This document shows positions 31,017 through 41,892 of a stretch of 64,000 nt of DNA, piece after piece. A program made the translations under genes and the position numbers. The notes under the pieces are model-generated. The model saw only the letters and a list, made by a program, of their open reading frames with translations, had not been told where the DNA came from and searched no databases. The DNA is from Eledone cirrhosa. Lineage: Eukaryota. Position 1 is the stretch's first letter. Each line of letters opens with the position of its first letter. Location of the stretch: positions 47,988,001-48,052,000 of the forward strand of contig OZ024740.1 in assembly GCA_964016885.1 (NCBI GenBank). Reading direction: 5' to 3'.

Positions 31017-31131
31017 ATCATCATCATCATCATCATCAACGTTTAACGTCCGTGTTCCACGCTTGCATGGGTTTGGACGGGGGTAGTCCCACTTGAGGCA
31101 AGAGTGATTGTCTTGCTCGCATAGGACTGTC
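31017..31131 (-). mobile_element. RTE family 1 extreme 3' end
   Basis: Reverse complement of ~41778-41892. Confidence 0.9.
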
Positions 31132-31498
31132 GTTTTCATTTTATTACAACTCATCGTTTTCGGTGCGCCTGACCGATTTAACTCACTCGATATGCAAATT
31201 AGGCTGCTCAGCCGTTAATTTTCATAAGGAAAGTATATACTTTCGAACGTTCAACTATCTGGCAGATGGGTATACGGTGCTGATGATAGCTAACAAGCTT
31301 GAAACTAGTACATCGTTCCTGTGTCAATGTTGAACAAAAAGGTGACGTGGTTGCCTTAACACCGTGCGGCATAAATTCAGGCTGTTCAGTTTGTTTACAA
31401 ACGAACAAAGCGGGCGCTGTAATAAGCGTCCGCTAAACTGATGCGTACATATATGTATGTGTACCTACGACGGCCTATGCCTCCGTTAATTTATCGTG

Positions 31499-31500
<2 letters not shown>
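31132..31500 (+). mobile_element. CpG-rich, hairpin-rich non-coding segment carrying a hammerhead (Penelope/retrozyme-like)
   Basis: Hammerhead motif, palindrome GAAAGTATATACTTTC (31229-31244), hairpin AGCGGGCGCT..AGCGTCCGCT (31409-31434); runs into (TA)n. Confidence 0.6.
31274..31316 (+). ncRNA. Minimal type I hammerhead ribozyme with palindromic stem III
   Basis: ACGGUG-CUGAUGA-U-AGCU(AACA)AGCU-U-GAAA-C(UA)G-UA^CAUCGU. Distal stem GUUCAAC/GUUGAAC (31249/31335). U.U instead of the usual G-C at the base of stem II. Confidence 0.75.
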
Positions 31501-31532
<32 letters not shown>

Positions 31533-31656
31533 GCATGCTACTGTACGTCTGTATACATATATGTATGTACGTATACATACATACTTATATATATATATAT
31601 ATGTTTATATATATATATGTTTATATATATATGTTTATATATGTTTATATATATAT

Positions 31657-31717
<61 letters not shown>

Positions 31718-31743
31718 TATATATATATATATATATATATATA

Positions 31744-32256
31744 AACAAGAAGGGTTTCTCCCTGCGTACGAAAGGCCGGTTGTATGATGCCTGTGTGAGG
31801 AGCGCGATGCTGCATGGTAGTGAGACATGGGCAGCTACCGCAGAAGATATGCGACGGCTGGAGAGAAATGAGGCAAGCATGCTCCGTTGGATGTGCAGTG
31901 TAAATGTGCGTGAACGACCCAGAATAAATGTGTTGAGAGAGAAACTGTGTCTGAGAGGGATAGAATGTAGTGTACGGGAGAGGAGACTGAGGTGGTATGG
32001 ACATGTGATGCGCATGGAGGATGACCGATGGGTGAAGAAGTGCCAGGAAATGCCAGTTGAAGGAAGACGTAGTAGAGGTAGACCACGAAAAACATGGGCG
32101 GAGGTGGTGAGAACAGACCTCAGATCATTGAAGCTCACGGTGGAGATGACGAGGGACCGTGACGAGTGGAGAGATGCTGTGCTGAATAAGACCCGTCCCA
32201 CCCTTGCAAGCAGGGAAAAGCGGACGTAAAATGATGATGATGATGATGATGATGAT
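31744..32256 (+). mobile_element. RTE family 3, 5'-truncated, open frame to tail
   Basis: [39 protein letters not shown]; stop at 32229 followed almost at once by (ATG)n; both flanks are the same TATATGTTTA-type array. Confidence 0.92.
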
Positions 32257-32384: not shown

Positions 32385-32883
32385 TACTTATAATTATATC
32401 ATTATTACCTCATGTATATTGGGTAGATGTATTAGTATTATTATTATTATTATTTTCATTCTATCATGCTTATTTTTATATTCAAACTCTTAATAAGGTT
32501 TAATTTGTGCAGTTGAAGATGGATGTGTGTATTGTTGTATGTGTATGTGTGTGTATGTGTGCGCACATATATACATATGCATATTGTACCTTTTGATTTT
32601 TATTGTAATTTTAATGTTGGTAAAGGTATATTATATTATATTATATTACATTGTATTATATATAATTCCTGCTCTATATAACCACCTTTGTTTAGCTCTA
32701 GGTTTTTTTGCTTTGGACTATATTTGTAATATGGTTCTTAATGTTATATACATCCTTAGTAATTTTTATTATATATTTTTATTATTTTTATTATATATTT
32801 TTGCAATACTCTAGTGTATGTACACTCCATATTCTTCGGAGCTTCCGGCTTGTATCTGCCGATATTACTTCTTGTTGTTTTAA

Positions 32884-32925
32884 TTGCCCTGATGAGTCCT
32901 TAATAGGACGAAACATTGTCGGCTA
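32884..32925 (+). ncRNA. Type I hammerhead ribozyme, canonical core, minimal stem III
   Basis: GCC-CUGAUGA-GUCCU(UAAU)AGGAC-GAAA-C(AUU)G-UC^GGC, followed by AATAAA at 32925-32930. Confidence 0.9.
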
Positions 32926-33020
32926 ATAAAGACTTTTGATGTATTGAAGGCTTCTTTGTTTTACTCTCTTAATTAATATATATATATATATATATATGTT
33001 TATATATATATATATATATA

Positions 33021-40606: not shown

Positions 40607-41892
40607 GCCTAGAGTCAAAAGGACTTAAAATTAACCTGGCTAAGACCAAAGTACTAGTTTGTAGGAAAGAAAACAAGGCGGCGGTCCCTTCTGGGAAATG
40701 GTCGTGCTCGGTGTGTAGGAAAGGCGTAGGTAGAAACTCCATTTTATGTCCTAAATGCAAAGTATGGGTGCATAAAAGATGTAGTGGGATCACAGGTAAG
40801 CTAACTAAGAACATAGATTTTACATGTGGCCGGTGTTCTGGTGCATTAAGTAGCAGCAAGTGCCCACAAAATACTAGCTCTTTCAATTGCGCAGAGGGTT
40901 CTATAGAAATAGTGGACAGCTTCCGTTACCTGGGTGACAAAATCAGCAGTGGGGGAGGGTGCTCTGAAAGTACTGTAGCTAGAGTCAGAACTAGTTGGAA
41001 AAAGTTCAGAGAGCTTATACCACTATTAGCTGCTAAAGGGTTCTCCCTAAAAATGAAAGGCAGGTTGTACGATGTCTGCATACGAACAGCAATGCTGCAT
41101 GGCAGTGAGACCTGGGCATTGTGTGCAGAGGATATACGCAGACTAGAGAGGAACGAAACTTGCATGCTCCGCTGGATGTGTAACAGTAATAATATACGTG
41201 AACGGCAAAGCATAAACGAACTAAGGAAAAAATTAGAGATAAGAGGGATCAGATGTTGTTTACTCGAGAGAAGGCTACGTTGGTATGGACACGTGATGCG
41301 CATGAAAGTCGATAGCTGTATAACAAAGTGCAGGGCAATAAAGATAGACGGTAGTCACGGAATAGGCAGACCTAGAAAAACCTGGGACGAGCTGATAAAC
41401 TCCGACATCACACACTTACACCTCTCCAAGACAATGTCACTGGACCGAGACCTTTGGCGGTACTCAGTAACAGAGAAGACCCGCCTTACCTAAATATATA
41501 GTAAAACCTACTCCAGCCAGTAGGCATCTCTAACAAAATACACCCCGTCCCACCACCACCACCCCCACCCCATCCACACCACCCCGTTCTATGTAAAGTT
41601 ATGTTGGTGCCGCGCCATCGAGGCCGAAACAAATGAGATCGTGTAGGTGTCACGACAAAAAAACACACAGTCCACGCTGTAATGTGGCCGTGTAGGCAAC
41701 ACGGTAAAAACCTCCCAGACCCACACTGTAAATGTGGTTGGTGTTAGGAAGGGCATCCAACTGTAGAAAACCTGCCAGACAGTCCTATGCGAGCAAGACA
41801 ATCACTCTTGCCTCAAGTGGGACTACCCCCGTCCAAACCCATGCAAGCGTGGAACACGGACGTTAAACGTTGATGATGATGATGATGATGAT
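40607..41892 (+). mobile_element. RTE family 1, longest copy (5'-truncated, open frame to 41493) with PHD finger
   Basis: LESKGLKINLAKTKV-[C4HC3]-[15 protein letters not shown]..; ~390-nt 3' UTR with internal repeats; (GAT)n tail. Confidence 0.95.

What the first reader, a model, noticed from the sequence alone, without database searches (positions are those of the whole stretch)
31132..31500. Second hammerhead-bearing element: minimal dimer-type ribozyme in a CpG-rich structured island
Seen: CUGAUGA and GAAA cores with 6-bp stem I (ACGGUG/CAUCGU), stem II AGCU/AGCU over a U.U pair, and palindromic ACUAGU as stem III with a GUA site (cleavage after 31310). It sits in a longer stem (31249-31335) with other hairpins nearby, and CpGs are retained in a CpG-poor window. 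Known: Penelope-associated minimal hammerheads have very short palindromic stem III and cleave as dimers. Inference: a young non-coding element unrelated in sequence to the 10.7-kb unit.
Basis: partly seen in the sequence, partly recalled or inferred. Interest (0 to 1): 0.75.

Follow-up and report, generated by a model that had tools for sequence, protein, structure and literature searches.

The report
Hammerhead retrozyme with Penelope-type insertion ends
This hammerhead-ribozyme motif is real and sits in a truncated copy of a protein-less repeat of about 420-520 bases, present roughly 28,000 times in this animal genome and mostly ending in TA microsatellites; the repeat is likely copied by the enzyme of a Penelope-type jumping gene, which makes it a new member of a known class, and its self-cutting is predicted but untested.

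Summary
The hammerhead is real and at the stated coordinates (31274-31316, predicted cut after 31310). It lies in a 5'-truncated copy (31130-31587) of a young, non-coding, tandemly repeated family with about 28,000 hammerhead matches genome-wide and two subfamilies (77% identical) that keep their stems by compensatory changes. The copies carry Penelope-like (PLE) insertion scars: two fixed 3' ends about 58 nt apart, (TA)n after 227 of 285 such ends, random 5' truncation, and tail-out inverted pairs in which one arm has the long and the other the short end (73 of 76 classifiable). Copying almost never stops at the cut site, so the template is likely a circle or an uncut multimer. It is best read as a non-LTR retrozyme, that is, a non-autonomous PLE. 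The helper PLE was not identified, and no RNA, cleavage or circle was observed. The strict label 'minimal hammerhead' does not fit; the dimer prediction is reasonable. This scan reported the same kind of element before, on other DNA of this and other genomes. Interest is moderate.

The parts
31130..31587 (+). 5'-truncated copy of the retrozyme (subfamily A): unit core positions 97-434, linker, then core 1-56 of the next unit; about 40 nt short of one full unit
   Evidence: (3 substitutions against L016 in the first 337 nt)
31274..31316 (+). type I hammerhead motif; stem I 6 bp, stem II 4 bp over U10.1.U11.1, stem III 2 bp plus palindromic loop; predicted cut after 31310
31304..31309 (+). palindrome ACUAGU, predicted to pair between two hammerheads
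   Evidence: no substitution in more than 2 of 98 loci
31249..31335 (+). long stem extending stem I; in a tandem transcript it can pair the two ends of the monomer
   Evidence: (helices 7-9)
31341..31355 (+). hairpin; both subfamilies fold a hairpin here from different letters
   Evidence: not recovered in the alignment fold, where the column register differs
31410..31433 (+). hairpin with 5 of 9 pairs changed on both sides among 11 copies
   Evidence: helix 12
31467..31499 (+). about 30-nt 3' tip of a second, unrelated 532-540-nt tandem family, nested in the linker
   Evidence: 886 exact matches; 31475-31502 identical
31500..31531 (+). (TA)n linker that is part of each subfamily-A unit
31532..31587 (+). 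start of the next unit, ending at the 'short' 3' end (core 56)
31588..31745 (.). (TA)n-rich target flank at the 3' end
31039..31131 (-). inverted 93-nt 3' piece of a common LINE-like repeat that abuts the 5' junction with 2 nt of microhomology; not part of the element

Best explanation
The locus is a truncated copy of a high-copy, non-coding, hammerhead-bearing tandem repeat, and this repeat is likely a non-LTR retrozyme that is pasted into (TA)n microsatellites by the reverse transcriptase-endonuclease of a Penelope-like element (PLE). Shown: about 28,000 hammerhead matches, units of about 420-520 nt, two fixed 3' ends about 58 nt apart, (TA)n flanks, random 5' truncation, tail-out inverted pairs with one long and one short end, both arms from the same subfamily, and copying through the cut site. 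Inferred: tandem copies are transcribed by read-through; two hammerheads pair through the palindrome and cut weakly, perhaps with protein help; the monomer may be ligated to a circle; a PLE protein nicks both strands of (TA)n and starts reverse transcription inside the RNA at the two sites, one site per strand, on a circle or an uncut multimer; the two cDNAs are joined head to head at short microhomologies. The window copy would be a dead end, since it has one hammerhead and less than one unit.
For: Copy number: 28,236 hammerhead matches against 3 for the reversed pattern; 38,087 matches of a terminal motif against 0. Tandem units: A median 484 nt (n=37), B median 424 nt (n=50). 3' ends: 87 of 105 arms in the unbiased sample fall in the short or long class; 227 of 285 such ends are followed by (TA)n against 3.6% background. 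Two-armed insertions: 33 of 57 unbiased loci; long+short in 22 of 22, 21 of 24 and 30 of 30 classifiable pairs in three samples, 73 of 76, p 2e-18 against one half. Arms of the same subfamily in 49 of 50 pairs with both arms called. Junction overlaps of 1-7 nt in 51 of 90 pairs. These are the PLE hallmarks of Craig 2021 and the two internal start sites shown in vitro by Frangieh 2024. The genome holds PLEs with RT and GIY-YIG; one young family has a U.U hammerhead, (TA)n targets and a 50-nt tail, long+short in 3 of 4 two-armed copies seen. RNA-level constraint: 12 of 78 pairs change on both sides, 97% of cells paired; the stem I wobble swap is coupled (G.U 48, U.G 46, G.G 0 of 104); the cleavable GUU/GUC variants number 618 and are dispersed, the non-cleavable GUG variant numbers 200, about half in one satellite-like array.
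Against: No autonomous PLE with homologous ends was found in 50 GIY-YIG loci (both outputs were cut) or 30 hammerhead-variant loci, and tail similarity to PLE families is weak, so the helper is unassigned. 47 of 123 inverted pairs had an end that could not be classed, and 3 of 76 broke the rule. No target-site duplication can be read in (TA)n. The minimum-energy fold of the hammerhead is inactive and the double fold is a small share of the ensemble (5.4-7.5 kcal/mol in 7 of 8 dimers, 24.6 in one). U10.1.U11.1 replaces the conserved G-C pair, and a B sub-lineage with a C.A mismatch in stem II occurs in 11 of 98 loci (mostly in the set seeded with such a copy). Only a slight excess of 5' ends lies at the cut site, so the DNA gives little direct trace of cleavage. 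Li et al. 2026 saw cleavage in only 1 of 9 frog retrozyme dimers. The covariation counts do not correct for relatedness, and the GUU spread may be a single lineage.
Confidence: 0.85

Rival explanations
1. The hammerhead is a passenger: the family spreads as uncut tandem transcripts copied by a PLE protein, and cleavage and circles play no part in mobility.
For: Frangieh 2024: ribozyme-dead PLE RNA inserts normally and uncut RNA is the main substrate. Here 59 of 105 arms cross the cut site, and 5' ends near it are 2 of 79 and 1 of 77 against 2.3 expected each; genome-wide about 128 against about 74 junctions at a control site, under 0.5% of copies. The active fold is not the minimum-energy fold.
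Against: Every change shared by more than 40 of 98 loci is permissive (N7, loop II, wobble swap); GUU spread while GUG did not, outside one array. A religated circle would also show no stop at the cut site.
Confidence: 0.35
2. The repeat is the solo pseudo-LTR of a coding PLE family whose ORF-bearing copies I did not sample.
For: PLE copies are mostly 5'-truncated, and Li 2026 derives retrozymes from pLTRs. My samples are about 190 loci out of tens of thousands.
Against: Arrays of 2-8 units, and one of 102, follow each other without an ORF; 28 of 105 unbiased arms exceed one unit; no parsed arm ran into PLE coding sequence in the loci that I inspected; the unit has its own closed fold with long-range pairs.
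Confidence: 0.1
3. It is a satellite or DNA-level repeat (unequal crossover, rolling-circle DNA element) and the hammerhead is incidental.
For: One 102-unit, about 50-kb array with uneven unit lengths shows that DNA-level amplification can occur.
Against: Dispersed copies with fixed 3' ends, random 5' ends and inverted arms; stems kept by G.U-tolerant and double changes; chance level of the motif 0 in 300.
Confidence: 0.04

Closest known systems
Metazoan non-LTR retrozymes (Cervera and de la Pena 2020, PMC7229834, passages and section 14 read; Li, Clavereau and Pollet 2026, 10.64898/2026.07.22.740005, parts 1-3 of 5 read)
   Same: Non-coding tandem units with one type I hammerhead each, GC under 50%, no LTR features, highly self-paired, thousands of copies, co-existing with PLEs.
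   Different: Units of 420-520 nt exceed the 170-400 nt of the 2020 paper (within the 51-972 bp of Li 2026); a (TA)n linker inside the unit; U10.1.U11.1; (TA)n targeting and two-armed long/short ends, for which 'microsatellite' and 'inverted' have 0 occurrences in the 2020 main text. RNA, circles and cleavage are not shown here.
Endonuclease-bearing Penelope-like elements (Neptune, Hydra, Naiad, Poseidon; Craig 2021, PMC8557442, passages; Frangieh 2024, PMC11167929, parts 1-2 of 4)
   Same: 5' truncation, partial tandems, inverted 5' copies, a tail at one end, microsatellite targets, hammerhead; two internal RT start sites.
   Different: No ORF; tail of about 58 nt against 30-40 nt; in vitro the anole enzyme showed no strand difference in start site, whereas here the two arms take opposite sites in 73 of 76 pairs.
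Non-autonomous Chlamys elements such as MRC1 (Craig 2021, passage)
   Same: Non-coding, multicopy head-to-tail insertions that depend on a PLE.
   Different: Those share 3' ends with autonomous families and mostly lack canonical hammerheads; no shared 3' end was found here.
Short-stem-III and minimal hammerheads of PLEs (Cervera 2014, PMC4209133, parts 1-2 of 4; Lunse 2017 seen only through the review PMC6765202 and PMC5737381)
   Same: Type I, palindromic very short stem III, predicted dimer, low intrinsic activity expected.
   Different: Helix I 6 bp and helix II 4 bp (canonical rather than min-HHR geometry); U.U instead of G10.1-C11.1, a mismatch already reported in natural hammerheads (Perreault 2011, PMC3088659, passage).

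Membership tests
Type I hammerhead ribozyme | Core CUGANGA, GAAA and NUH site at a three-way junction | tested here: met
   weak Rfam HH9 match only
Type I hammerhead ribozyme | Stems I and II kept across relatives | tested here: met
   exception: C.A mismatch in stem II in 11 of 98 loci
Type I hammerhead ribozyme | G10.1-C11.1 pair | tested here: not met
   U.U in the window and in nearly all copies; a tolerated natural variant according to PMC3088659
Type I hammerhead ribozyme | Self-cleavage | not testable with these tools
   needs an assay; indirect: GUU spread and GUG did not
Minimal hammerhead (Cervera 2014 definition) | No helix III, helix II 7-8 bp, helix I 4-5 bp, extra nucleotide before G10.1 | tested here: not met
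   6-bp I, 4-bp II, 2-bp III with palindromic loop
Dimer-type hammerhead | Palindromic short stem III; double fold available in tandem RNA | tested here: met
   (computed folds only)
Non-LTR retrozyme | Non-coding tandem units, one type I hammerhead each, dispersed at high copy | tested here: met
   no tRNA gene in L016
Non-LTR retrozyme | Highly self-paired monomer | tested here: met
   67-71% paired as a circle in 3 units (z inflated by the TA linker), core alone z -3.41
Non-LTR retrozyme | Abundant linear and circular monomer RNA | not testable with these tools
   needs RNA data from the organism
Non-autonomous PLE | 5' truncation, partial tandems, inverted 5' copy, one-sided tail, microsatellite target | tested here: met
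Non-autonomous PLE | Ends homologous to the pLTR of an autonomous PLE | tested here: inconclusive
   none in 50 GIY-YIG loci of 10,598 candidates; weak tail scores
Non-autonomous PLE | Mobilisation by a PLE protein | not testable with these tools
   needs an in vitro priming assay

The most novel reading that the evidence does not exclude
The insertions record an asymmetric PLE machine: one enzyme dimer bound to one retrozyme RNA (probably a circle) uses two start sites 58 nt apart, one for each nicked strand, and so builds long+short two-armed insertions; the ribozyme is selected to make that circle and to keep arrays short, since the only giant array found (102 units) grew from a non-cleavable GUG unit. 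This would be direct genomic evidence that PLEs mobilise animal retrozymes, with a small defined RNA for testing it.
Probability: 0.3. Interest if true: 0.68.

Novelty: new member of a known kind. Interest (0 to 1): 0.42.

Why it matters
That PLEs mobilise animal retrozymes is so far argued from co-occurrence and pLTR similarity. A family with tens of thousands of young copies, whose ends follow the two-start-site rule shown in vitro for a PLE enzyme, gives insertion-level support and a 420-520-nt substrate with mapped start sites. It also offers natural variants (GUA, GUU, GUG; U.U base of stem II) to ask what PLE-type hammerheads are for. The class itself is known, and this scan has noted it several times.

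Tried and rejected
Expression: no RNA holder listed. Four runs of unknown kind, kept as contigs, were laid: organism A at high depth, organisms B and C with 4-6 low-depth contigs; nothing is concluded about expression or other hosts. Whole-window Rfam and the repeat finder were swamped by TA repeats. Search for the parent PLE: blastn against 30 + 20 GIY-YIG loci found only nested insertions (outputs cut); a pattern excluding the usual stem II returned mostly mutant copies and two unrelated loci; tail alignment to 15 PLE ends gave uncorrected p down to 0.003 in AT-rich sequence, not trusted. Pile-up of 5' ends at the cut site: not found beyond about 1.5-fold. A fold-back model predicting that the long-end arm is always the longer arm: either arm can be longer. 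Within-locus identity did not separate circle from multimer: units within an array were on average no closer (0.025) than the nearest other locus (0.019), although some loci share rare variants across units or arms. A possible excess of 5' ends near the short site (11 of 86 long-end arms at core 47-64) has two explanations and was left open. My first descriptor scan had a matching bug and was redone. tRNA-derived promoter: none. Two 'short+short' pairs made only of TA-like noise hits (L091, L153) were dropped before the count. Overlapping loci of one array were counted once, and the arrays L107-111 and L118-120 were left out of the end counts.

Full report
Observation. A structure descriptor found it once in the window and never in 300 simulated 58-kb windows. 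Rfam scores it weakly (HH9, 19 bits, E 0.039, gathering 52). The region keeps its CpGs (observed/expected 1.41 against 0.41) and folds better than all 100 shuffles (z -3.41). The 49-nt motif alone is not unusually stable, and its lowest fold pairs the CUG of the core with the stem III loop, which is inactive.

What it belongs to. The window lies in a 3.0-Gb genome. That it is an animal, probably a cephalopod, is my inference from size and repeat content; earlier scan notes say the same, and no call names it. The stretch had 1,693 first-look candidates, and the 40 scored were 99-100% identical. A hammerhead pattern matched 28,236 times (reversed control 3) and a terminal motif 38,087 times (control 0). 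The unit is a 434-nt core plus a (TA/TG)n linker, repeated head to tail. A second subfamily, B, is 77% identical. Unit lengths are 439-586 nt for A (median 484, n=37) and a median of 424 nt for B (n=50). The window copy spans 31130-31587: core 97-434, linker, core 1-56. It is about 40 nt short of a unit and has one hammerhead. Its linker holds the 30-nt tip of an unrelated tandem family. Apart from TA-rich stretches it resembles nothing else in the window, including the hammerhead at 32883-32927.

RNA-level constraint. On 11 copies chosen to span the subfamilies, 12 of 78 named pairs change on both sides and 97% of cells pair; no shuffle of 500 reached this, but the structure came from the same alignment and relatedness is not corrected. 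In 98 loci the only hammerhead changes shared by more than 40 loci are N7, a loop II base and a stem I G.U to U.G swap, which is coupled (48 G.U, 46 U.G, 0 G.G, 10 other). Against this, 11 loci carry a C.A mismatch in stem II. At the cleavage base, GUU/GUC variants number 618, are dispersed, and 96 of the first 100 are GUU. GUG, which is not cleaved (PMC4191386, passages), numbers 200 with a strand excess of 149 to 51, explained by one array of 102 units that all have G there. The GUU spread may be one lineage, so this is modest evidence.

Dimer prediction. A single active fold needs a 2-nt loop that the energy model forbids; the palindrome duplex gives -4.8 kcal/mol. By Cervera and de la Pena 2014 (parts 1-2 of 4) this geometry is the canonical metazoan type, which also acts as a dimer, and not their minimal type. 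U10.1.U11.1 is a known natural mismatch (PMC3088659) and recurs in other hammerheads of this genome.

Insertion anatomy. I parsed three samples: 57 loci taken in order along contig C1, 52 best-hit loci, and 80 loci chosen for breaks near the hammerhead. In hammerhead sense, 3' ends fall at core 56-66 (short) or 115-121 (long); 227 of 285 such ends run into (TA)n against 3.6% background. 5' ends are spread along the unit. 33 of 57 unbiased loci have two arms, tails outward. Of 123 such pairs 76 could be classed at both ends, and 73 have one long and one short end (22 of 22, 21 of 24, 30 of 30). Both arms are of one subfamily in 49 of 50 called pairs, and 51 of 90 inner junctions overlap by 1-7 nt. 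Craig 2021 (passages) lists 5' truncation, partial tandems, inverted copies, a 30-40-bp tail often at one end and (TA)n targets as PLE traits. Frangieh 2024 (parts 1-2 of 4) shows that a PLE enzyme nicks both strands of AT-rich DNA and starts inside the RNA at two sites that bound the tail, that its hammerhead needs the protein to cut, and that uncut RNA is the main template.

Template. 59 of 105 unbiased arms cross the cut site and 28 exceed one unit; 5' ends within 6 nt of the site are 2 of 79 and 1 of 77, with 2.3 expected each. Genome-wide, 204 copies break within 3 nt of the site against 93 at a control 7 nt upstream; 25 of 40 and 32 of 40 inspected were true junctions, so about 128 against 74, under 0.5% of copies. 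Cut linear monomers are therefore not the main template. Circle and uncut multimer both fit, and identity within arrays did not separate them.

Helper. The genome has 10,598 GIY-YIG candidates; L161 carries RT and GIY-YIG matches, and several families have the CX2-5CxxC linker that Craig 2021 ties to Neptune/Nematis and to microsatellite targeting. One young family (L164, L175; 678 candidates) has a U.U hammerhead with a palindromic stem III, (TA)n flanks and a 50-nt tail, long+short in L175, L306 and L310 and long+long in L297. Its ends are not similar to this unit, and no parent was found. The helper is therefore inferred by class only.

Comparison and novelty. The element works like, and meets the DNA-level definition of, a metazoan non-LTR retrozyme (Cervera 2020, passages and section 14; Li 2026, parts 1-3 of 5); RNA, circle and cleavage could not be tested. 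Searches for hammerhead+octopus+Penelope, cephalopod+hammerhead ribozyme and octopus+retrozyme (listings only, library limited) showed no paper on such a family; Li 2026 sampled vertebrates, three insects and one anthozoan, and supplements were not seen. Lunse 2017 was not held and is known to me only through a review. The scan's earlier notes describe the same kind of element in this and other genomes, one with a 422-bp unit that may be subfamily B; my reading was fixed before that look-up. Verdict: real, a new member of a known kind, with an unusually clean long/short rule and a cleavage-dead giant array as the points of interest. Interest 0.42.

Noticed in passing
L321-L325, L329, L330 (G000:C3, about 12.272-12.324 Mb): A 102-unit, about 50-kb array of subfamily A in which every unit has the non-cleavable GUG site and an A-to-G change in stem II; it ends at the long site in (TA)n.
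   Followed up: partly
window 31467-31502; L334:1500-2033: Tip of a second tandem family (532-540 nt, 886 exact matches of a 22-nt motif) that also ends in (TA)n and forms inverted pairs; its unit shows CUGAUGA and GAAAC cores separated by an enlarged stem II region.
   Followed up: partly
L161, L166, L171, L042, L055, L178, L179 (3' ends): Several PLE families with a C-terminal endonuclease carry hammerhead-like motifs with the U3-A8 core swap and the palindrome ACCGGU, 76-210 nt before their (TA)n end in most copies; Cervera 2014 reports this swap in Schistosoma.
   Followed up: partly
L175:2600-6110; L291-L320: Young autonomous PLE family (best copies 98-100% identical) with a U.U hammerhead and a 50-nt tail; a candidate helper by behaviour, not by sequence.
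   Followed up: partly
window 32883-32927 (+): A second hammerhead with G10.1-C11.1 (Rfam RF00163, 31.7 bits, gathering 34), followed by AATAAA; no similarity to this element or to any locus fetched by then, and no PLE ORF remnant in the window by tblastn with five proteins.
   Followed up: partly
window 31039-31131 and 41778-41870: 93 nt of a LINE-like 3' end are 100% identical in inverted orientation 10.7 kb apart, while other copies in the window match at 82-96%; one copy abuts the 5' junction of the retrozyme. Cause unknown.
   Followed up: no
L173:5950-6194 (-): Another non-coding stretch ending in (TA)n with a similar A/U-rich hairpin and weak similarity to core 3-39.
   Followed up: no
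L165, L180 (3' of the ORF): A PLE family with a different endonuclease linker (Hydra-like by the description in Craig 2021; not tested) has a hammerhead-like motif with U4 changed to A and a U.U base of stem II, close to its (TA)n end.
   Followed up: no
window 6138-7342 and 8307-9513: A 1.2-kb direct repeat at 99% identity.
   Followed up: no
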